Source: Candidatus Firestoneibacteriota bacterium (lineage in GTDB: Bacteria > Oederibacteriota > D2-FULL-39-29 > JBBTED01). Taken from it: a stretch of 18,146 nucleotides of DNA. The translations under genes and the position numbers were made by a program. Below, in pieces: positions 1 to 8,828 of this stretch. The DNA is taken from the NCBI GenBank assembly GCA_038042445.1, contig JBBTED010000116.1:1-18146 (forward strand), given 5' to 3'. The notes below the pieces were generated by a model. It was not told the DNA's origin and did no database searches. It saw nothing but the letters and a program-made list of their open reading frames with translations. Position 1 is the first letter of the stretch. Each line of letters begins with the position of its first letter.

Positions 1-2
1 AT

Positions 3-785
3 TGTAGTAGCCGATTTATCGGCGAATTAGAGTTAATGTATGCGAAGAAATATTTAGGGATAGACGAGGATAATTTAAGTGATTGGTATGTGGGGTATGT
101 GATGCCATTGGGAGAAATAGGAAGTATAGGAATAGGTGATTTATTATTTACATCAAGCAAGTATAAGGAAAACACAGGAGTGATAAGTTATGGCAAAAAC
201 CTAGGAGATATATCCTGTGGAGTAAGCATAAAAGTAATGAGTGTGATGTATGAAGAGAACGAGTATACGAGATTGGACCCATTGTTTAATGCAAATGGAT
301 ATAGCAAAACAAAAGTAGGAATAGACATAGGAATGATTTATCAAATGTATGATGACTTACGAGTAGGAGCAAGTGTAGAGAATGTGAATAAACCGAATCT
401 AACATTAGGCGATACAACAGGTGAGGAATTGCCGATGATTATACGAATAGGGACATCATACCAAATAGGCAACTTCACTCCAGCAATAGATGTGTCATAC
501 AGGGACAGGAATATAAACGGCAAAAAAGATATGAATGTATATGGCGGAGTAGAATATATTGTAGGAGAGGCGTCTCGTGTAGGACAGGATAATCTTGTTA
601 TAGAACAAGATTATCGCCTGTCAGACATAAGCCTACGAGCAGGAGTAAATCTAGATGAAGTGTCGCTTGGAGCAAGCTATAATTTTATCAGTGGAATGAA
701 AATAGACTACGCATTTATTTATCCATTTACCGCAATAAAAGGCATATTAGGTTCCCACCGTTTTGGAGTCACCTGGCAATTGTAG
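3..785 (+). CDS. Outer-membrane beta-barrel protein, PorV/PorP(SprF)-like; 5'-truncated by the window edge
   Basis: Frame is open from position 3 (CSSRFIGELELMYAKKYLG...), so ATG36 is probably internal. Alternating amphipathic strands with motifs GIDIGMIY, VGASVENVNKPNL, LPMIIRIGTSY, GGVEY...SLRAG, KIDYAF and C-terminal GSHRFGVTWQL, typical of this barrel family. Confidence 0.7.
   Translation, partial: CSSRFIGELELMYAKKYLGIDEDNLSDWYVGYVMPLGEIGSIGIGDLLFTSSKYKENTGVISYGKNLGDISCGVSIKVMSVMYEENEYTRLDPLFNANGYSKTKVGIDIGMIYQMYDDLRVGASVENVNKPNLTLGDTTGEELPMIIRIGTSYQIGNFTPAIDVSYRDRNINGKKDMNVYGGVEYIVGEASRVGQDNLVIEQDYRLSDISLRAGVNLDEVSLGASYNFISGMKIDYAFIYPFTAIKGILGSHRFGVTWQL
4..23 (+). repeat. GTAG-foot REP-like element, family A variant, inside the barrel CDS
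   Basis: GTAGTAGCCGATTTATCGGC, hairpin GCCGAT-TT-ATCGGC; one mismatch to consensus GTAGTTGCCGATTTATCGGC. Confidence 0.85.
561..622 (+). repeat. Nested GTAG-foot palindromic insertion (family C-like) inside the barrel CDS
   Basis: GTAGGAGAGGCGTCTCG-T-GTAGGACAGG-[ATAATCTTGTT-ATAG-AACAAGATTAT]-CG-CCTGTC; perfect 11-bp inner stem 589-614 closed by GACAGG/CCTGTC. Confidence 0.75.
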
Positions 786-836
786 AAGCAAATCAAATTT
801 AGTAACAAGTTAACCATTATAAGTAAAATTTTAATT

Positions 837-936
837 GTAGTTGCTGATTTATCAGCATTTTTAAAAAGTGATTTATGTTTTAAAGATAAACCAACAAATT
901 GGTTGTTGCAAGTAATGCCGATAAATCGGCAACTAC
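837..936. repeat. Family A inverted doublet (REPIN-like)
   Basis: GTAGTTGCTGATTTATCAGCA (837-857, +) and TGCCGATAAATCGGCAACTAC (916-936, -) with a 58-nt spacer. Confidence 0.9.
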
Positions 937-970
937 ATATTGTATTTTAGAATGGTTATCAAATTTATTC

Positions 971-999
971 TTTACAAGAAAAATATCATACTTTATACT
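971..999 (+). promoter_or_regulatory. Putative sigma70 promoter for the radical SAM-amidase-pgeF operon
   Basis: TTTACA (971-976) - 17 nt - TATACT (994-999), 28 nt upstream of ATG1028; the AT-rich background lowers specificity. Confidence 0.5.
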
Positions 1000-1027
1000 A
1001 TAAACACAAATTCTAAATAATTTAAAA

Positions 1028-2626
1028 ATGAGTAAAAAAATACCATTAACTAATATTAATACAAAAGATGAAATAAATCTTTGTTTTGCAAATAAATCTG
1101 CGGATGTATCATTTGCTATTGGGTTTCCGGAAAGCTACTATATTGGTATGTCAAATTTAGGGTGGCAGGTTATTTATGCAATTTTAAATGCAAGAAAGGA
1201 TGTGATATGTGAGAGGTTTTTTTTAAATGATAATTCTAAAATTTGTACTGTAGAAAACAGAAATTCGCTTAAAGATTTTGATTTTGTTGGGTTTTCCCTA
1301 TCTTTTGAATTAAATTATATTAATGTCCTGAAAATTTTAAAGCTTGCAAAAATACCATTACTTTCTAATGAACGCAAATATAATGACCCAATTATTATAG
1401 CAGGAGGAGTGTGCGCAAGTTATAATCCAGAACCATTAGCGAATTTCATTGATGTATTTGTGATTGGAGATTCAGAAGAAGTCATTAGCGAAATTATTGA
1501 TAAATATAAAAAAATAAAAGCAGATTCACGAGACAAAATATTATTAGAACTTGCAAATATACCGGGAGTATATGTTCCAAAATTTTATACTCCGATATAT
1601 AACAGCGATAACACGATTAAAAAATTTGAAATAGAGCATAATGTTCCAAAAACAATAAAACGCAGAATTGTCCAAAATCTTGATATTTGCCCTGGGATGT
1701 CGGCGATACTAACACCAAATACTGAATTTGGAAAAATGCTTTTAGTAGAAATAAATCGCGGATGTTCACGTATGTGTAAATTTTGTGTAACAAGTTTTAT
1801 ACAAACTCCTGTGAGACGTAGAAGTTTGGCTTGTGTTATGGATATAATAGAAAAAGGACTAAAATGGACAAATAAAATAGGATTGGTTGGCACAAGTATA
1901 ACAGATTATCCGGAGATAGATGAACTTGTAACATTTATAATTAAAAAAAATGCATATTTATCAACTTCATCTTTGCGTGCAGAAGGTGCTTCCGATATAC
2001 TAATTGAGGCTCTTGGAAAAGGTGGACAAAAAACATTTACTATTGCAGTAGAAACAATGTCAGAGAAGTTGCAGAAAATAATCAAAAAAGAAATAAAAGA
2101 AGAAACGATTTATTCTGTTGTATCAAAAGCAATAAAAAATGATATAATAAATATCAAACTTTATTTTATGATAGGTTTACCGGAAGAAAATATGCAGGAT
2201 ATTGATATAAACATAAGATTTATAAAAAGACTTGTTAAGTATTTTATTGAAACGAGTGTTTCTACTGGTAGAATAGGTAAAATAATTGCTGGATTTTCGG
2301 TATTTATTCCAAAACCTTTTACTCCATTTGAATCTGAGCAGATGGAAAACATAAAAAATTTAAAACAAAAAATGCAGTATTTAAAAGGTGAAGTAACTGG
2401 TATACCGAATTTAGAATTGAGATGTGAAAGTTTGCATAATGCTGTTTTACAAGGTGTTTTTTCAAGAGGAGACAGAAGAGTTGGTGGTATTTTGGATTAT
2501 GCAGTTAATAGTGGTGTTGATTTAAAGACAAGTTTAAAAAATTTAACTAAATCAGATATTGATTTTCATATTTATGGTAACTCTAAAGGAAGTGGAATTT
2601 TGCCATGGAAACATTTAAACAGTTGA
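1028..2626 (+). CDS. B12-binding-domain-like radical SAM protein (TIGR03960-like)
   Basis: CxxxCxxC motif EINRGCSRMCKFC; N-terminal FPESYYIGMSNLG, GFSLSFELNY, IIAGG..YNPEP; KLYFMIGLPEE; FIPKPFTPF; SRGDRR. Confidence 0.88.
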   Translation: MSKKIPLTNINTKDEINLCFANKSADVSFAIGFPESYYIGMSNLGWQVIYAILNARKDVICERFFLNDNSKICTVENRNSLKDFDFVGFSLSFELNYINVLKILKLAKIPLLSNERKYNDPIIIAGGVCASYNPEPLANFIDVFVIGDSEEVISEIIDKYKKIKADSRDKILLELANIPGVYVPKFYTPIYNSDNTIKKFEIEHNVPKTIKRRIVQNLDICPGMSAILTPNTEFGKMLLVEINRGCSRMCKFCVTSFIQTPVRRRSLACVMDIIEKGLKWTNKIGLVGTSITDYPEIDELVTFIIKKNAYLSTSSLRAEGASDILIEALGKGGQKTFTIAVETMSEKLQKIIKKEIKEETIYSVVSKAIKNDIINIKLYFMIGLPEENMQDIDINIRFIKRLVKYFIETSVSTGRIGKIIAGFSVFIPKPFTPFESEQMENIKNLKQKMQYLKGEVTGIPNLELRCESLHNAVLQGVFSRGDRRVGGILDYAVNSGVDLKTSLKNLTKSDIDFHIYGNSKGSGILPWKHLNS

Positions 2627-3942
2627 AAAAATCCATATTAAACATTTTAATATTTACTCTGGTTTTATCGTTTAATTTCAGCGATGTTGCATTTACTGCT
2701 ACATCAACAAAGAAAAGTTCTACAACAAAAACACAACCTTCTAAAAAATCATCAAAATCTACAAAATCCAAAAAGGTAGTTAATAAGAAAAAAAATATAA
2801 TAATAAAAATAGCTTCTACTAATGAGCAAACAGAAATGAAATTTGATGTTAAGAGTGTAAATGGAGTGTTAAAAATATCAATTCCAAGAGCATGCGAGGT
2901 ATTGAAAGTAGGATATTCTTATTCAGAATTAACTAATAGGATTGTTCTTATATATAATAACAGAAAAACAGTATTATTTTTGGATTCAAAATATTTTCTT
3001 TGTGAGAATGAAAGAAATATAGAAATGGAAGATGCTCCTTCTAAAGATGAAAAAGGCATATTGATTTCTGGAAAAAGTTTTGCAAGTATATTGAGCGCTC
3101 TTTTTAATTGTGAAGTTTTTTGGAATGAAACAAGAATGACTCTGCTTATAGAAACAGATGCAAAAAAAGATGCTATATCTTCAGTGAATACATCATTTAA
3201 AGATAGTGGTTATAAATTAAAAAAAATAATTATAGACGCTGGTCATGGTGGCCATGATTCAGGCGCAAAAGGCCCGACAAAATTACTGGAAAAGGATATG
3301 AATATTGATATTGCAAATAGAATTGTGAGATTATTAAAAAGTAAATTGCCAATTGAAATAATAATGACTCGGACAGATGATACTTTTATAAGTTTGCAGG
3401 AAAGGGTTAATATTGCAAATACGAATAATGCAGATCTTTTCGTAAGTATTCACTGTAATGCAAAGGGACGCAGGGTATCTGCTGAAAATGCGTATGGTAC
3501 TGAGTCGTATATTTTTGCAGAAGTTGCTTCAGATGAAAATGCTGCAGAAGTTGCACAACGTGAAAATATTGGGGCTCCTACAGATTTCTTGAGTTTTTTA
3601 TTAAATGATCTTCAAAAAAAATCTACAGAAAGTGTGAGTATTTTAATGGCTGGCTATATAGAAGATAAATTAGTTAATGATGTTGGATTATATGGTAGAA
3701 AAAATAGTATGATAATGCGTGCTCCATTTTATGTGCTTGCGCGCACCAAAATGCCTGCTGTTTTAGTTGAAGTTGCTTTTATTTCTAATCCTCAAGAAGA
3801 ACAAAAATTAGCAAGTCCTTATTTTCGCGAAAAGGTTGCTTTAGCTGTTTTTCAGGCAATAAAGAAATATCACAGTGAATTAAATTTAGATGAAGACAAA
3901 GCAAAAGAACCCATTCCTACTGAAAACCAGCAATCAAATTAG
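2605..3942 (+). CDS. N-acetylmuramoyl-L-alanine amidase (Amidase_3, AmiC-like) with signal peptide, Lys/Ser-rich linker and N-terminal accessory domain
   Basis: Zn-ligand motifs IIIDAGHGGHD, LLEKD, FVSIHCN, APFYVL, AVLVEVAFISN; AEVAQREN helix; hydrophobic N-terminus. Exact start uncertain. Confidence 0.92.
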   Translation: METFKQLKKSILNILIFTLVLSFNFSDVAFTATSTKKSSTTKTQPSKKSSKSTKSKKVVNKKKNIIIKIASTNEQTEMKFDVKSVNGVLKISIPRACEVLKVGYSYSELTNRIVLIYNNRKTVLFLDSKYFLCENERNIEMEDAPSKDEKGILISGKSFASILSALFNCEVFWNETRMTLLIETDAKKDAISSVNTSFKDSGYKLKKIIIDAGHGGHDSGAKGPTKLLEKDMNIDIANRIVRLLKSKLPIEIIMTRTDDTFISLQERVNIANTNNADLFVSIHCNAKGRRVSAENAYGTESYIFAEVASDENAAEVAQRENIGAPTDFLSFLLNDLQKKSTESVSILMAGYIEDKLVNDVGLYGRKNSMIMRAPFYVLARTKMPAVLVEVAFISNPQEEQKLASPYFREKVALAVFQAIKKYHSELNLDEDKAKEPIPTENQQSN

Positions 3943-4705
3943 ATATTTTACCATACCTTCTTGGTATAAATTTAATGTTTCAGCTTTTATTTCAACTAAA
4001 CCTTATGATTTGTCATTTAAAGGCATTGCTGATAAATCAGCAACTACGATTAAAAATAGAAAACTTATTGCAGATGCTATGGGTTTTGGCATAGATAAAC
4101 TTGTTACTTGTCAGCAGACACATAGCAATAAAGTAGCAGTTATAAGAAAAAAAGATGTAGGCAAAGGAAATTTAAAATATAGTACAGCTATTGCTGATAC
4201 TGATGGTTTGATTACGAATTTAAAGAATATTCCTATAGCAATTTCTATAGCTGATTGTTTGCCTATATTTCTTGTAGATCCAGTTAATAAATCTATAGGA
4301 ATTGTTCATGCTGGCTGGAGAGGGACTTTTAAAAAAATAGCAGAAATTGCAATTTTGAAAATGAAAACAGTATTTAATAGTTCACCTGAAAATCTTAAAG
4401 TTGCTTTGGGTCCATCAATTGGTTCTTGTTGCTATGAAATAGATTTAAAATTAACTGATAAATTTCTTAAGGCATTTAAAAAAAATAGCTATGAAAATCC
4501 TTTTAATTGGACGAAAATTTTTAAAAAATCCGCTATACTTGATATTAAAGAATTAAATAGACGCCAGTTAATTAAAGTAGGAGTTTTGCCTGAAAATATT
4601 TTAGTAAATCCTGATTGTACAAAATGCAATTCAGATTTATTTTTTTCTTACAGAAGAGATAAAAACAATGCAGGCAGAATGATGGCTGTTATTTGGCAAA
4701 CTTAA
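3890..4705 (+). CDS. pgeF: Peptidoglycan editing factor / purine nucleoside phosphorylase, PgeF (YfiH) family
   Basis: QQTHS, TDGLIT, ADCLPI, HAGWRG, LGPSIG..CYE, CTKC, FFSYRR, GRMMAVI. Confidence 0.93.
   Translation: MKTKQKNPFLLKTSNQIRYFTIPSWYKFNVSAFISTKPYDLSFKGIADKSATTIKNRKLIADAMGFGIDKLVTCQQTHSNKVAVIRKKDVGKGNLKYSTAIADTDGLITNLKNIPIAISIADCLPIFLVDPVNKSIGIVHAGWRGTFKKIAEIAILKMKTVFNSSPENLKVALGPSIGSCCYEIDLKLTDKFLKAFKKNSYENPFNWTKIFKKSAILDIKELNRRQLIKVGVLPENILVNPDCTKCNSDLFFSYRRDKNNAGRMMAVIWQT
4027..4047 (-). repeat. Family A element (T variant) inside pgeF
   Basis: TGCTGATAAATCAGCAACTAC, identical to the intergenic copy 4768-4788; translated as (I)ADKSATT. Confidence 0.92.
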
Positions 4706-4735
4706 GGTGGTTTTTCGTATACATCATGAAATTTA

Positions 4736-4790
4736 TTGTAGTTGCCGATTTATCGGCAGTTTTTTTATGCTGATAAATCAGCAACTACAA
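4736..4790. repeat. Family A inverted doublet between convergent genes; may double as a bidirectional terminator or 3' stabiliser
   Basis: TT-GTAGTTGCCGATTTATCGGCA (4738-4758) - GTTTTTTTA - TGCTGATAAATCAGCAACTAC (4768-4788)-AA. Confidence 0.92.
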
Positions 4791-4796
4791 AGATTG

Positions 4797-5738
4797 TTAC
4801 AGTTTTTCTATTATTGCCTGAGCTAAAAGAGGAATCATTATTTCGTGGTGTCCTGTTATTGCATATCCTTTTCCACCTTTTAAAGTAGGTCTTGTTATAA
4901 CATTTGTAATAGGTCTATAATGTTGAATCATATCAAAATTTACAGTAGTAAATTTATAAACTTTGTATCCAAGATTTCTAGATATTGATAGCGCTTTTAA
5001 AAAAACTTCTGGCATTATAACAGCAGATCCGCAATTTAATATTACTCCGTTTTCAAGCTTAGAAACTTCATTAGTGAATATTTTAAAGTCAATAAAACTA
5101 CTGTTGCCTATAGCAGCTCCGTTTGTTTCAGGATGCTGATGAATAATATCAGTACCTATTGCAACATGAACAGTTGCTGGAATATTCAATAAATATGCTG
5201 TGGCAAGTATACTCAGGTTTTTATATGGTGCTTTAAGAATAATTATTTTTTTTCCAATAGATTCGCCCATTCCTGTGTTGTCAGATATACTATGATTAAT
5301 TGCTTCGTTAATTAATTTTCCGGTTTCTTCTGCCATTCCAAAACTTCCGTCTGCTAATGCTGTTGTTACTTCCTCAGAGGTTGTGCCTGCTAATGCAATT
5401 TCAAAATCATGAATACTTGCAGCGCCGTTCATAGCAATAGCAGTAATAACTTTTCTTTTCATAAGATCTATAATCACAGGTCCAAGTCCGCACTTAATAA
5501 TATGGCCTCCAATCATTAGTATAACCTGTTTTTTATGTTTGTGGGCTAAAACAATATCGTTAATTACTTGTTTTAATTTCTGTGCAGCTAATATATTCGG
5601 TAGATTGGAAATAAAGTTATTAAATAAAATTTTCTTCTTTCCAGATTTGGCAAAATTTGTAATTTTTACCTTACTTTTTCTGCGTAATATACTATATCTT
5701 TTAATTTTAGTCAGATTTATCTGTTTATATTTGCTCAT
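4797..5738 (-). CDS. Conserved protein of unknown function, GSU2086-like (deoxyhypusine-synthase-like fold)
   Basis: Motifs GGHIIKCGLGP, AMNGAASIHDFE, GSFGMAEETG, TVHVAIGTDIIHQHP, GSAVIMPEVFLKA, GHHEIMIPLL; ATGA overlap with the upstream gene. Confidence 0.7.
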   Translation of the reverse strand: MSKYKQINLTKIKRYSILRRKSKVKITNFAKSGKKKILFNNFISNLPNILAAQKLKQVINDIVLAHKHKKQVILMIGGHIIKCGLGPVIIDLMKRKVITAIAMNGAASIHDFEIALAGTTSEEVTTALADGSFGMAEETGKLINEAINHSISDNTGMGESIGKKIIILKAPYKNLSILATAYLLNIPATVHVAIGTDIIHQHPETNGAAIGNSSFIDFKIFTNEVSKLENGVILNCGSAVIMPEVFLKALSISRNLGYKVYKFTTVNFDMIQHYRPITNVITRPTLKGGKGYAITGHHEIMIPLLAQAIIEKL

Positions 5739-6865
5739 TGATTTATTTTCCTTGCCTGACCTTTGTCTATTATTATACCTTCTGTTAACACTACATTTAT
5801 AGCGCCAACAAGAAACGCTTTTGCAGCCATTTTTACTGGAATATGTCTCACATCATCAGTTACCCATATTGTTATATCGCCTTCCTGTTTGAATATACTT
5901 TCAAAATTCATAATAGGTTTAACAACTAAAGTATTAAATTTGCCTGCTGGAACTTTTACTACTTCTTTATTTATTATTTGAACTTTTAAATTATGGAATT
6001 CTCCTTCAGAATATACTGTAATAGGTATATCTTTCCCAATTTCAACTTTTTGTGTTCTAAAGTAAAAAAAACAAGAAAGTATATCATGGACATTATCAGG
6101 CGCATTATAAATTTTATTTTCTTCAGTAACTGTATTTTTTTCATTATCAAAGTAAGCATTTGAATTCTTTTTTAATGTTCCTTCTACAAGATATTGTTCA
6201 AGGCGAATAGGCAAAAATGAATAAACATCAATATATGTTTCTACTCTATCATCTACTTTGTGAAATGTTGAAAAAAATGGCAAAGATTTTGCAGTTGTAA
6301 CAATATGATATGCATCTTTGCCTTCTGTATTTGTTATTTCTCTGACTTCCATAGTAGCTATACCTGCAGTTATTTTCATATATTGTATTGCAAAGGTAAG
6401 TTTTTCTCCAGATCCAAATGCAAAATTTTGAATTTTAACTTGTCGTTTAGATAAATCTTTTACTGTTGTTTTTTTTGCCGATAAATCGGCAACTACGGGG
6501 TTTTCCTGTTTTGCAATTGTCGTTGTTTCTAAAGATTTTTCTTTAGATTCTGATGTCTGTAGTCTGATGTCTGTAGTTTGTAGTTGTGGAGATGATTCTT
6601 TTTTATCAATAATAATTGCTTCTTCCTGTTTTGCAACTTCTACAGGGGCTTTAGTTTCTGGAATAATTGTAGGTTTATCCTGTGTGTTTTGTGCAAGTAA
6701 AGTTTTAGAATCAGTTGAATCCTCAGATTTTTTGCTTTCCTTGTTTTCTGCTTGTCCTGTTACATCATACACTTTTATATAGCCACTTCTAACACTGCTT
6801 CCGCATCCTAAAAAAAACAAAAGTGATACAATAGCTGCTTTTATATATAAATTTTTACATTGCAT
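5735..6865 (-). CDS. DUF3108-domain lipoprotein
   Basis: Likely start ATG6865 (MQCKNL...) rather than TTG6910; lipobox FLG|C; long low-complexity linker; C-terminal FGSGEKLTF, VDDRVETYID, VKVPAGKFNT, IWVTDDVRHIPVK. Confidence 0.8.
   Translation of the reverse strand: MQCKNLYIKAAIVSLLFFLGCGSSVRSGYIKVYDVTGQAENKESKKSEDSTDSKTLLAQNTQDKPTIIPETKAPVEVAKQEEAIIIDKKESSPQLQTTDIRLQTSESKEKSLETTTIAKQENPVVADLSAKKTTVKDLSKRQVKIQNFAFGSGEKLTFAIQYMKITAGIATMEVREITNTEGKDAYHIVTTAKSLPFFSTFHKVDDRVETYIDVYSFLPIRLEQYLVEGTLKKNSNAYFDNEKNTVTEENKIYNAPDNVHDILSCFFYFRTQKVEIGKDIPITVYSEGEFHNLKVQIINKEVVKVPAGKFNTLVVKPIMNFESIFKQEGDITIWVTDDVRHIPVKMAAKAFLVGAINVVLTEGIIIDKGQARKINQ
6476..6496 (-). repeat. Family A element (C variant) inside the DUF3108 gene
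   Basis: TGCCGATAAATCGGCAACTAC, identical to 916-936; read on the coding strand as VVADLSA. Confidence 0.92.
6549..6590. repeat. Heptamer tandem repeat inside the DUF3108 linker
   Basis: TCTGATG TCTGTAG TCTGATG TCTGTAG TTTGTAG TTGTGGA (five clear units plus one degenerate, 42 nt). Confidence 0.75.
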
Positions 6866-6907
6866 AATTGATATTTTTATTTTGCAAATATATAATAAAT
6901 TTCCTTT

Positions 6908-6962
6908 CAAAAGAGTATTCCAAAAGAGGATACTCTTTTGGTCATTCGCCTTCGGCGAATGA
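6908..6962. repeat. Two adjacent hairpins in the divergent intergenic region
   Basis: CAAAAGAGTAT..ATACTCTTTTG (6908-6940) and TCATTCGCC-TTC-GGCGAATGA (6942-6962). Confidence 0.75.
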
Positions 6963-7088
6963 AATAACGAATCAATGAAAAACGATAAATTTCAAGATAA
7001 AGTAACACGTGCATTCCCGTGGATATCTATTGCATAATAACATAAATTAATGTAAGAAACAACCTAAATTTTATATTAGATAAAGAGT

Positions 7089-7106
7089 TTGACTTTTAAA
7101 TGTCAA
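7089..7106. promoter_or_regulatory. Candidate palindromic operator overlapping a -35-like hexamer upstream of the pilin gene
   Basis: TTGAC-T-TTTAAA-T-GTCAA, an 18-bp palindrome with one mismatched pair, 23 nt before ATG7130. Confidence 0.35.
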
Positions 7107-7129
7107 TATGATAATTAAATATTTAAGCT

Positions 7130-7579
7130 ATGTTTAAAAAAATAGATGAAGTGGGGTTTACTCATGTCCTGTGTGTAGAAACTGGGTTTACTTTAATTGA
7201 ATTGATGATAGTTGTGGCAATTATTGGAATATTGGCTGCAATATCTATACCGAAGATGAGTAGTATTTTAGAGAAATCACGTGAAGGTGCTACAAAAGGT
7301 AATTTGTCTGCTATTAGGTCCGCTGTTGCAATTTATTATGGAGATAAAGAAGGACAATGGCCAGATGATTTAACAACTAATTTTTCTTCATATTTATCGG
7401 AAATTCCAATAGCTAAAGCTACACCACTTGGTAATTCAAATGCAATTACACTTGTTACTGTGCCTCCGACAACTACTGGTATTGGTTGGGCATATTGTAG
7501 TGCTAGTGATTGGGCTGGAGGAGTTTGGTGTAATAGTACTGCTATTGATAGCAAAGGAAATTCGTTTACTGATTATTAG
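7130..7579 (+). CDS. Type IV pilin / GspG-like pseudopilin with N-methylation site
   Basis: G|FTLIELMIVVAIIGILAAISIP (Glu5 present), EGATKGNLSAIRSAVAIYYGD, two C-terminal Cys; extra upstream GFT. Confidence 0.92.
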   Translation: MFKKIDEVGFTHVLCVETGFTLIELMIVVAIIGILAAISIPKMSSILEKSREGATKGNLSAIRSAVAIYYGDKEGQWPDDLTTNFSSYLSEIPIAKATPLGNSNAITLVTVPPTTTGIGWAYCSASDWAGGVWCNSTAIDSKGNSFTDY

Positions 7580-7673: not shown

Positions 7674-8828
7674 ATGACCAAAGGGAATATTGTAAGTATG
7701 AAAAATAAATTACAACGGCAGATTGAAATCTTGAAGGAAAAAAATTCTAATCAAGAGAAAAAACTTGAAGCTCTTACTATTATGTATGAAGTCAGCAAAA
7801 GTGTGGCTTCATTATTCAAGTTGTCTGATATATTAAAAATAATTTTGAATAAAGCAACAATTAAATTAAAATGTGAAATCGGTTCCATTTTATTAGTTGA
7901 TGAAGAAGGCGAATATCTTACAATAGCAGTTGCAAAAGGATTGTCGCAGAAAATTGTTTTGCATACTCGATTAAAAATTGGCGAAAGAATTTCCGGGTGG
8001 GTAGTTAAACATAAAAAACCTTTACTGGTTAAAAATATTGAAAAAGATAAAAGATTTACTATTAGAAATTCTGAAAAATATTACAACAAATCATTAATAT
8101 CAGTACCAATAATAATTGATACGCATAAAGTAGTTGGAGTTATAAATATTAATAATAAACATACCAGAGAATCTTTTTCAAATGATGATTTGCAGTTGCT
8201 TAAAGCATTGGCGTCTCAGGCTGCAATTGCAATTGAGAAAACGAAGCTTTATCAAAATTTACAGGATGTATATATGCGGACTATAAAAGCATTGGCAGTT
8301 GCTATAGATGCAAAAGATCACTATACGCACAATCATTCAGAAAATGTTACAAAATATGCAGTAGAAATTGCTGAAGAAATGGGTTTAAATTCTGAAGAAG
8401 TAAAAAATATAAACCATGCTTCTCAACTTCATGATTTAGGTAAGATTGGTATACAGGATTATATCTTGTCAAAATCAGATAAACTTTCTGCTGAAGAATG
8501 GAAAAAAATAAAAGAACATTCATTAAAAAGTGCAGAAATACTTGAGCCACTTGTATTTTTAAATGATGTAATAGAAATGGTGAAACAGCATCATGAAAGA
8601 TATGATGGAGCAGGTTATCCTTATGGAGTTAAGGGAGATAATATCAGGATTGGAGCACGTATAATGGCAGTTGCAGATGCTTATGATGCAATGATTTCTG
8701 ACAGGCCATATAGGAACTCTATGTCTCAAAAAGATGCAATAGCAGAACTTGAAAAATGCAGTGGTAAACAATTCGATCCTCAGGTTGTCCATGCTTTCTT
8801 GAGGGTATTAGAAAGGAGAAAGAAATGA
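7674..8828 (+). CDS. GAF + HD-GYP domain c-di-GMP phosphodiesterase
   Basis: Coiled coil, GAF (GERISGWV, SLISVPI, VGVININNK, LASQAAIAIE), AKDHYTHNHS, LHDLGKIG, HHERYDGAGYP, VADAYDAMISDRPYR, GKQFDP; start may be ATG7698. Confidence 0.93.
   Translation: MTKGNIVSMKNKLQRQIEILKEKNSNQEKKLEALTIMYEVSKSVASLFKLSDILKIILNKATIKLKCEIGSILLVDEEGEYLTIAVAKGLSQKIVLHTRLKIGERISGWVVKHKKPLLVKNIEKDKRFTIRNSEKYYNKSLISVPIIIDTHKVVGVININNKHTRESFSNDDLQLLKALASQAAIAIEKTKLYQNLQDVYMRTIKALAVAIDAKDHYTHNHSENVTKYAVEIAEEMGLNSEEVKNINHASQLHDLGKIGIQDYILSKSDKLSAEEWKKIKEHSLKSAEILEPLVFLNDVIEMVKQHHERYDGAGYPYGVKGDNIRIGARIMAVADAYDAMISDRPYRNSMSQKDAIAELEKCSGKQFDPQVVHAFLRVLERRKK

What the first reader, a model, noticed from the sequence alone, without database searches (positions are those of the whole stretch)
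4..6496. One 21-bp REP-like element is translated inside three unrelated proteins, in three different reading frames
Seen: GTAGTTGCYGATTTATCRGCA occurs 7 times in the first 6.5 kb. Four copies are intergenic (837, 916, 4738, 4768) and three lie in open frames: the barrel gene (4-23, read SSRFIG), pgeF (4027-4047, antisense, read ADKSATT) and the DUF3108 gene (6476-6496, read VVADLSA). The pgeF and DUF3108 copies are letter-for-letter identical to intergenic copies, so this is DNA-level spread and not protein-motif conservation. Known: in-frame palindromic inserts are described for Rickettsia RPEs and some GTAG/CGTC repeats; GTAG-foot REPs are substrates of HUH RAYT/TnpA(REP) enzymes. Inference: an active system in this lineage writes short hairpins into genes. 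In pgeF the copy sits in the loop between the 'DLSF' and 'NR' motifs and may replace rather than add residues.
Basis: partly seen in the sequence, partly recalled or inferred. Interest (0 to 1): 0.85.

Follow-up and report, generated by a model that had tools for sequence, protein, structure and literature searches.

The report
Hairpin repeat translated inside ordinary genes
A 21-base mobile DNA hairpin (a GTAG-type REP element) really does sit in frame inside several intact genes of this groundwater bacterium; this behaviour is already described for such repeats, but the identical repeat also turns up in very distantly related bacteria.

Summary
The window has 7 copies of the 21-mer, 6 exact and 1 with 2 mismatches, against 0 expected. 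Three lie in frame inside real genes, in three different frames.

It is a GTAG-headed REP family:
- about 189 copies in the 2.8 Mb genome, with hairpin-preserving variants;
- 43 head-out inverted doublets, the REPIN form;
- 134 of 189 copies intergenic;
- one of five Y1-transposase genes is a RAYT-like gene flanked by the repeat.

At least 21 copies in 18 genes are truly internal, including ArgRS and IF-2, always in loops or linkers. Where it can be judged, the 7 codons partly replace native residues: ArgRS net +3, barrel net +4.

This behaviour, including TAG stop donation, was published by Di Nocera et al. 2013 (PMC3733652, passages read), so it is a new member of a known kind.

The less expected result concerns distribution. 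The identical 20-mer, with the same variants and again in frame in proteins, occurs in 19 other assemblies whose record titles name several phyla. It was found in 0 of 40 nearest relatives. Translation and mobility were not shown directly.

The parts
4..24 (+). REP variant copy (2 mismatches, hairpin intact) read as CSSRFIG inside the barrel gene
   Evidence: The same variant sits at the same site in paralogues C18:25 and C96:23849. The 76%-identical paralogue C160 lacks it.
3..785 (+). 3' part of a PorP/SprF-like outer-membrane barrel gene, cut by the contig start
   Evidence: Pfam PorP_SprF 35.9 bits and TraF_2 36 bits. The full-length paralogue is 338 aa.
837..936 (.). REPIN: two REPs in inverted, head-out orientation (837-857 +, 916-936 -) with a 58-nt spacer
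   Evidence: Folds at -23.9 kcal/mol, z -6.4. Runs X4 and X5 show a 46-nt skip at 867-912 within its spacer.
3890..4705 (+). pgeF (YfiH/Cu-oxidase_4 family) gene, 271 aa, intact
   Evidence: Pfam PF02578, E 2.4e-68, residues 46-269. Homologues align from about residue 27. AlphaFold2 model mean pLDDT 91.6.
4027..4047 (-). Exact REP copy read antisense as ADKSATT (pgeF residues 47-53)
   Evidence: It lies at the end of the low-confidence loop 36-50 and the first turn of helix 51-64. It aligns with GDDRTDV of solved YlmD structures. It is supported by X4 and X5 contigs.
4738..4788 (.). REPIN: 51-nt inverted doublet (4738-4758 +, 4768-4788 -) between the convergent pgeF gene and the gene at 4797-5738
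   Evidence: Folds at -18.9 kcal/mol, z -9.2.
5735..6865 (-). DUF3108 lipoprotein gene (probable ATG at 6865; signal peptide with an LGC lipobox, a low-complexity linker, then the DUF3108 domain)
   Evidence: Pfam PF11306, E 5.7e-41, residues 158-361 of P0002. The start codon and the lipobox are read from the sequence (inference).
6476..6496 (-). Exact REP copy read in sense as VVADLSA, in the linker just before the DUF3108 domain
   Evidence: The next in-frame start after the repeat falls inside the domain (alternative start at nt 531 of the ORF).

Best explanation
The 21-mer is one unit of a GTAG-headed REP/REPIN family. Each unit has an unpaired T-GTAG head followed by a 6-7 bp stem and a 2-4 nt loop.

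The family is most likely multiplied through single-stranded DNA by a REP-associated tyrosine (HUH, Y1) transposase. One such gene, flanked by these very repeats, lies on contig C63.

Most copies land or survive between genes. Copies that land in coding DNA persist only under three conditions:
- the length change keeps the reading frame (the conserved unit is 21 nt, or 7 codons);
- the copy lies in one of the four stop-free frames, which read VVAD(L/S)SA, CS(C/S)RFIG, ADKSATT and PINRQL;
- the site is a surface loop, a linker or a signal-peptide region.

Such copies are then simply translated as seven harmless residues. Insertion is often accompanied or followed by loss of a few native codons, so the repeat partly replaces the old loop.

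What is shown: the family anatomy, the RAYT linkage in this genome, the in-frame position inside intact and recognisable genes, the loop or linker placement, and depletion from genes.

What is inferred: mobilisation by the RAYT, the order of insertion and deletion, and actual translation.
For: Family anatomy:
- 63 exact copies and 189 copies at up to 4 mismatches with the hairpin kept. The reversed-genome control gives 0.
- Compensatory stem variants occur: GCCGAT/ATCGGC, GCTGAT/ATCAGC, GCCCAT/ATGGGC, GCTCAT/ATGAGC and GCCAAT/ATTGGC.
- The logo is conserved from T(-1) to position 20.
- 43 of the 45 neighbouring pairs within 200 nt are convergent doublets, with spacings near 23, 30, 60 and 80 nt.
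- The hairpins are more stable than shuffles.

RAYT:
- One of 5 Y1_Tnp hits (C63:8398-8664) has the repeat on both sides.
- Its best NCBIfam match is REP_Tyr_transpos at 70.1 bits, against IS200 at 20.5 bits.

Intragenic copies:
- 38 of 189 copies lie wholly inside ORFs of my own caller.
- For 21 of them, in 18 genes, Pfam domains or paralogue alignments lie on both sides. The genes are GH2, an MmeI-like methylase, IF-2, two GH42-like, an sCache cyclase, ComF-like, five barrel-gene copies, ArgRS (DALR domain), TMEM260-like, DUF3108, pgeF, a PMT_2-like protein, GT9 and a lipoprotein.
- All sit at alignment gaps or variable loops.
- Copies are depleted from genes: 134 of 189 are intergenic against about 9% intergenic DNA.

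Other points:
- 10 ORFs end at the TAG of the GTAG head.
- Independent runs confirm the pgeF copy.
- Di Nocera et al. 2013 describe the same behaviour for GTAG and CGTC REPs.
Against: - No insertion polymorphism or empty site was seen. No relative closer than 44% identity for pgeF or 51% for ArgRS exists in 5.8 billion proteins. Mobility and its timing are therefore inferred.
- The RAYT-like protein scores below NCBIfam's curated cut-off (70.1 against 80 bits) and only just passes Pfam's (23.5-27 against 23 bits). Its ORF has no stop of its own and runs through a REP doublet into a 1370-aa surface protein, so it may not be a normal free-standing enzyme.
- In five other genomes that carry the same repeat, 0 of 20 RAYT-like loci have it within 1.5 kb.
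- Net length changes of +3, +4 and about 0 codons do not fit a clean 21-nt insertion.
- The frames are not used evenly: 13, 3, 3 and 2 copies (p about 0.0015). A pure 'any open frame' filter does not explain this.
- My gene calls are crude.
Confidence: 0.76

Rival explanations
1. The repeat enters genes not by transposase-mediated insertion but by copying from another copy. The route would be template switching at the hairpin during replication, or short-patch gene conversion at microhomology, overwriting a stretch of similar length.
For: - There is partial replacement rather than clean addition. ArgRS has 7 residues where 40 of 40 homologues have 4. The barrel gene has 21 nt in place of about 9. 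The GT9 doublet sits where paralogues have a Cys motif. The pgeF loop is equal in length to that of long-form homologues.
- 0 of 20 RAYT-like loci in five other repeat-bearing genomes are next to the repeat.
- REP arms at the N-termini of two giant paralogues are better conserved than the proteins, which are 44% identical.
Against: - Insertion followed by a small deletion in a variable loop gives the same picture.
- Relative to four short-loop pgeF homologues the gain is exactly 7 residues.
- The PMT_2-like protein shows a clean doublet-sized insertion relative to 3 paralogues.
- The genome does hold a REP-flanked RAYT.
Confidence: 0.15
2. The intragenic copies are kept because they do something. 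They might act as mRNA hairpins that pause ribosomes or set decay points, or as a useful peptide tag in envelope proteins. On this view they are not merely tolerated.
For: - There is a frame bias toward VVAD(L/S)SA, 13 of 21 copies.
- Many hosts are secreted or envelope proteins: barrels, lipoproteins, giant Big_1/CHU_C proteins, glycosyltransferases.
- Doublets are retained just before the signal-peptide core in two paralogues that are 44% identical.
Against: - The hosts are functionally unrelated and include cytoplasmic ArgRS, IF-2, pgeF and ComF-like proteins.
- All four open frames are used.
- Copies are strongly depleted from genes.
- No homologue needs the peptide.
- Di Nocera et al. 2013 argue the same way.
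Confidence: 0.07
3. It is an artefact: the frames are not real genes or are pseudogenes, or the contigs are chimeric at the repeat.
For: - The genome is a draft of 181 contigs. Two contigs start at the repeat-bearing barrel paralogues.
- 17 of my 38 'internal' copies are near ORF 5' ends or otherwise doubtful.
Against: - Homology continues on both sides of the repeat within one domain. Examples are DALR_1 451-574, Glyco_hydro_2_N2 11-182, sCache 46-185 and TMEM260-like 32-204.
- The pgeF model is confident on both sides.
- Contigs from two other studies span the pgeF copy without a difference.
Confidence: 0.02

Closest known systems
GTAG-tagged REPs and their head-to-head dimers or REPINs, with RAYT genes ('REPtrons') (Di Nocera, De Gregorio & Rocco 2013, PMC3733652, passages read; Bertels & Rainey REPIN/RAYT papers, abstracts seen in the listing)
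   Same: An unpaired GTAG head followed by a short stem-loop with compensatory variants. High copy number and mostly intergenic location. Inverted doublets. The TAG of the head supplies stop codons. A minority of copies lie inside known genes, tRNA synthetases among them, as singles or dimers. A tyrosine transposase gene is flanked by the repeat.
   Different: - The phyla that paper lists for GTAG repeats (Proteobacteria, Cyanobacteria, Chloroflexi and the PVC group; passages) do not include the labels met here.
- The host is AT-rich (32% GC) and the unit is very short (21 nt).
- The identical 20-mer is shared with deeply divergent genomes but not found in 40 nearest relatives. The listed REPIN/RAYT abstracts describe mostly vertical inheritance.
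- The RAYT ORF is fused in frame to a giant surface protein.
Rickettsia palindromic elements (RPE), in-frame inserts in protein genes (cited as refs 13 and 14 in PMC3733652; original papers not read here)
   Same: Palindromic repeats inserted in frame into functional genes, placed where the protein tolerates extra residues.
   Different: No sequence relation was tested. I recall RPE-1 as roughly 100-150 bp against 21 nt here, but that size comes from no call. According to PMC3733652, the intragenic Rickettsia conorii repeats are CGTC-type, not GTAG-type. No dedicated transposase is known for them, according to that paper's conclusions.
IS200/IS605 TnpA (Y1 HUH transposases) and their hairpin ends
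   Same: The RAYT-like protein matches Pfam Y1_Tnp and carries HUH-like (HFHLIV) and YYEH motifs (the motif names are recalled). The substrate is a hairpin with a neighbouring tetranucleotide.
   Different: The NCBIfam IS200 model scores only 20.5 bits against 70.1 for the REP-associated model. The repeats are dispersed on their own rather than as the ends of a full insertion sequence.

Membership tests
GTAG-tagged REP / REPIN | Conserved unpaired GTAG tetranucleotide at one end | tested here: met
   Positions 1-4 read G, T, A and G in 184-186 of 186 aligned copies. T at -1 occurs in 163 of 186.
GTAG-tagged REP / REPIN | Short palindromic stem-loop kept by compensatory changes | tested here: met
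   Five complementary stem variants. 178 of 200 hits at up to 4 mismatches keep all 6 pairs. Single-strand DNA fold -6.1 kcal/mol, z -5.6.
GTAG-tagged REP / REPIN | Many dispersed copies, mostly extragenic | tested here: met
   189 copies spread over many contigs. 134 of 189 are intergenic by my own ORF caller.
GTAG-tagged REP / REPIN | Inverted doublets (head-to-head dimers) | tested here: met
   43 convergent pairs among the 45 neighbouring pairs within 200 nt, that is 86 of 189 copies.
GTAG-tagged REP / REPIN | A RAYT gene flanked by the same repeat | tested here: met
   C63:8398-8664 has a REP at 8782 on one side and a doublet at 8339/8282 on the other. The other 4 Y1_Tnp hits are not flanked.
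RAYT (REP-associated tyrosine transposase) | Match to the curated family model above its cut-off | tested here: not met
   NCBIfam NF047646 scores 70.1 bits against a cut-off of 80, although it is by far the best model. Pfam Y1_Tnp scores 23.5-27 bits against a cut-off of 23, so that one is just met.
RAYT (REP-associated tyrosine transposase) | HUH motif and catalytic tyrosine | tested here: inconclusive
   HFHLIV and GYYEH are visible in P0123. The assignment as catalytic motifs is by recall, and no alignment to a characterised RAYT was made.
RAYT (REP-associated tyrosine transposase) | Cleaves and rejoins its REP as single-stranded DNA | not testable with these tools
   This needs a biochemical assay.
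Rickettsia palindromic elements (RPE) | Sequence or size class of the RPE families | not tested
   No RPE sequence was fetched. RPE is considered only as a functional analogue, not as a family for this repeat.

The most novel reading that the evidence does not exclude
This exact REP family, with the same 20-mer and the same set of stem and loop variants, is a promiscuous element that moves horizontally between deeply divergent groundwater bacteria and decorates their proteins in frame wherever it lands.

It is present in at least three lineages whose ArgRS proteins are only 42-46% identical. It occurs in 19 other assemblies with record labels including Elusimicrobia, Deltaproteobacteria, Endomicrobiia, Ignavibacteria, Gammaproteobacteria and Patescibacteria, at loci of 38-59% GC. 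It was found in 0 of the 40 nearest relatives of this genome.

That would run against the published picture of REPIN/RAYT systems as vertically inherited, lineage-specific residents. It would also make this family a natural cross-phylum 'peptide-inserting' element.
Probability: 0.35. Interest if true: 0.7.

Novelty: new member of a known kind. Interest (0 to 1): 0.45.

Why it matters
The core finding is ordinary for specialists. REPs inside genes, read as short peptides in loops, were catalogued in 2013. This genome adds a clear and dense example from a poorly known groundwater lineage: at least 11% of copies, including copies in argS and infB.

Two further points would matter if they hold:
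1. An identical REP family is shared by lineages as far apart as bacterial phyla yet missing from the nearest relatives. This points to horizontal spread of a class of element generally held to be vertically inherited.
2. The repeated pattern of partial replacement (net +3, +4 and about 0 codons) hints that the way these hairpins enter coding DNA is not a simple cut-and-paste insertion.

Both points are directly testable with existing metagenomes.

Tried and rejected
- **Close orthologues for an empty-site test.** None exist. The best pgeF relative is 44% identical among 8000 scored candidates and the best ArgRS relative is 51%. The 40 nearest genomes are related only at class or phylum level.
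- **Reads.** Four runs were laid on window 1-7200. No allele without the repeat was seen. The pgeF copy is spanned by X4 and X5 contigs. For the DUF3108 copy the listed X5 contigs stop at 6473 and resume at 6537, so nothing can be said there. X10 and X12 cover only parts. No RNA runs hold the stretch, so expression is untested.
- **RAYT linkage elsewhere.** With P0123 as query, 4 of 5 other repeat-bearing genomes gave weak hits. Only one clear homologue was found (G042, pieces at 64-68% identity), and it has no copy of the repeat nearby. With the NCBIfam model, 0 of 20 fetched RAYT-like loci have the repeat within about 1.5 kb.
- **Protein-motif reading.** Rejected, because the DNA is identical in three frames and absent from homologues.
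- **Chance.** Rejected.
- **Contamination as the source of the cross-lineage hits.** Rejected, because those loci have 38-59% GC against 32% here and the repeat sits in many contigs per genome.
- **Earlier scan notes by sequence.** Nothing found.
- **Not run.** Rfam scan, promoter and terminator scan, structure-library search, complex prediction, metagenome-contig scan.


Full report
**1. Observation**

Six are exact and one, at 4-24, has 2 mismatches. None appeared in any of 200 shuffles.
- The pgeF copy (4027-4047, minus strand) is identical to the copies at 837 and 4768.
- The DUF3108 copy (6476-6496, minus strand, sense to its gene) is identical to those at 916 and 4738.
- The translations give ADKSATT in pgeF, VVADLSA in the DUF3108 protein and CSSRFIG in the barrel protein. 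That is three different frames of one element, as claimed.
- The four intergenic copies are two inverted doublets that fold into long hairpins.

**2. The host genes are real**
- pgeF matches Pfam Cu-oxidase_4 at E 2.4e-68. Homologues from 40 relatives align from about residue 27, upstream of the repeat.
- An AlphaFold2 model built on 22 sequences has mean pLDDT 91.6. Three confident strands (residues 10-35) lie before the repeat. The repeat-coded residues 47-53 span the end of the only low-confidence internal loop and the first turn of helix 51-64.
- The DUF3108 protein has its domain at residues 158-361 of P0002, with the repeat at 138-144 of P0002 (139-145 of the 391-aa ORF). It lies in a low-complexity linker after a lipoprotein-like signal peptide (read).
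- Window position 1 is a contig start, so the barrel gene is truncated. A complete paralogue (C96, 338 aa) and a second truncated one (C18) carry the same variant at the same place after the NPAGLGNY motif. A paralogue 76% identical (C160) does not carry it.
- Contigs from two other studies span the pgeF copy with no difference.

**3. What the element is**

Genome-wide there are 63 exact copies and 189 copies at up to 4 mismatches that keep the hairpin. The reversed genome gives none.
- Variants change both sides of the stem together.
- The conserved unit runs from a T before GTAG to position 20.
- 43 of the 45 neighbouring pairs within 200 nt are convergent doublets.
- By my own crude ORF caller (2542 ORFs, 91% of the DNA), 134 of 189 copies are intergenic, 17 overlap an ORF end and 38 are internal.
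- Ten ORFs end at the TAG of the GTAG head.
- Of five Y1_Tnp hits in the genome, one on contig C63 has the repeat on both sides. Its 138-residue product is best matched by NCBIfam REP_Tyr_transpos, at 70.1 bits against a cut-off of 80, with IS200 at 20.5 bits.

This is the anatomy of a GTAG-tagged REP/REPIN family with its RAYT.

**4. How common the in-frame copies are**

I scanned the ORFs holding the 38 internal copies against Pfam (with for the window genes) and aligned them with in-genome paralogues.

I dropped 17 copies as doubtful:
- those before the first domain or near an ORF start: C15, C21, C48, C63_641, C77, C112, and the N-terminal doublets of three giant proteins;
- one weak match (C87_50838);
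- C36 and the C50 doublet.

The remaining 21 copies, in 18 genes, have domain or paralogue homology on both sides. They are:
- a GH2 N-terminal domain;
- an MmeI-like methylase;
- IF-2, before its IF2_N repeat;
- two GH42-like paralogues, at the same site;
- an sCache cyclase;
- a ComF-like protein;
- three barrel paralogues, plus another barrel carrying two copies;
- the ArgRS DALR domain;
- a TMEM260-like protein;
- DUF3108;
- pgeF;
- a PMT_2-like protein (doublet);
- a GT9 glycosyltransferase (doublet);
- a lipoprotein.

All four stop-free frames occur, but unevenly: 13, 3, 3 and 2 copies (p about 0.0015).

**5. Added or replaced?**
- In pgeF, four short-loop homologues are exactly 7 residues shorter at the site. 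Long-loop homologues and solved YlmD structures are equal in length, with ADKSATT aligned to GDDRTDV. pgeF alone cannot decide.
- In ArgRS, the 7 residues stand where 40 of 40 homologues have 4 (compare).
- In the barrel family, the net gain over the 76% paralogue is 12 nt.
- In the GT9 enzyme, the doublet occupies the place of a Cys motif present in 4 paralogues. In the PMT_2-like protein, the doublet is a clean insertion relative to 3 paralogues.

Partial replacement is therefore frequent.

No closer comparison is possible. The best database relatives are 44% identical for pgeF and 51% for ArgRS, and no repeat-free allele was seen in the laid runs.

**6. Comparison with what is known**

Di Nocera et al. 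2013 (PMC3733652; abstract and passages read) report the following:
- GTAG and CGTC REP families in more than 80 species;
- head-to-head dimers;
- REP termini that supply the TAG stop codon;
- REPs wholly inside ORFs of known function, tRNA synthetases among them, often as dimers;
- RAYT genes flanked by REPs;
- the argument that such inserts are tolerated in linkers or loops.

Earlier notes of this scan on other pieces of the same genome reached the same family assignment (e1-1119420 for GTAG REPINs plus a RAYT; e1-937885 for an in-frame CGTC REP).

**7. The less expected part**
The record titles name Elusimicrobia/Elusimicrobiota, Deltaproteobacteria, Endomicrobiia, Thermodesulfobacteriota, Ignavibacteria, Gammaproteobacteria and Patescibacteria.
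- These loci have 38-59% GC, against 32% for this genome.
- Five of those genomes hold 63, 29, 21, 12 and 2 copies at up to 2 mismatches, with the same variant spectrum and 0 control hits.
- ArgRS identities show three deep lineages: this genome, G043/G044 and G042/G045. Identity is 42-46% between groups and 77% within them.
- In those genomes the repeat again lies in frame inside recognisable proteins: an Rha78A-like Ig domain, an RHS-repeat protein, the PmbA/TldD central domain, fn3 and Big domains, and Peptidase_C39.
- By contrast, 0 of the 40 nearest relatives of this genome (12 of the same class, 28 of the same phylum) have a single match.

This patchiness points to horizontal spread. The REPIN/RAYT abstracts listed describe mostly vertical inheritance.

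Two cautions apply:
- The taxon labels are the submitters'.
- In the five genomes examined, none of 20 RAYT-like loci is next to the repeat.

**8. Verdict**

Activity and translation are unproven. Interest is moderate, and rests mainly on the cross-lineage distribution and the replacement pattern.

Noticed in passing
G000 contig C63:4660-8772 (locus L026 661-4773, minus strand): The RAYT-like ORF has no stop of its own. It runs in frame through a REP doublet (VVADSSA ... ADKSATT) straight into the signal-peptide-like segment of a 1370-aa Big_1 surface protein. A 44%-identical paralogue next door has a doublet at the same place after a 12-residue leader. No ATG, GTG or TTG lies between the RAYT and the hydrophobic segment.
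   Followed up: partly
G000 contig C63:8798-9886 (locus L026 4799-5887, minus strand): One PorP/SprF-like barrel gene carries two in-frame REPs (residues 147-153 and 278-284) and takes its TAG stop from a third. The second REP comes with about 16 further extra residues relative to 5 paralogues.
   Followed up: partly
window 6879-7036: A contig of run X5 joins 6878 to 7037, skipping 158 bp upstream of the DUF3108 gene. The skipped stretch holds two short hairpins and may be another small mobile element that is polymorphic in the population.
   Followed up: no
window 867-912: Contigs of runs X4 and X5 skip 46 nt within the spacer of the 837-936 REPIN, so the spacer length varies between populations.
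   Followed up: no
L117 1489-2079 (minus strand; genome G042): The only clear homologue of the RAYT-like protein in another repeat-bearing genome is itself interrupted in frame by tandem repeats (GGSTSVCCS twice, LPQQQADLH three times). It sits between efflux-pump genes with no copy of the 20-mer nearby.
   Followed up: partly
L114 601-716 (genome G042): Five exact copies of the 20-mer stand in tandem at a 24-nt period, open in the VVADLSA frame.
   Followed up: no
window 3890-3942: The pgeF ORF overlaps the end of the upstream gene (2605-3942) by 53 nt. No other ATG, GTG or TTG lies before residue 42, so the long start is probably used.
   Followed up: no
G000 contig C148:16361-17491: In a GT9 heptosyltransferase-like gene, a REP doublet stands where four paralogues have a C-x2-C...C...C motif. 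Homology resumes after it, so a presumed metal-binding motif seems to have been overwritten.
   Followed up: no
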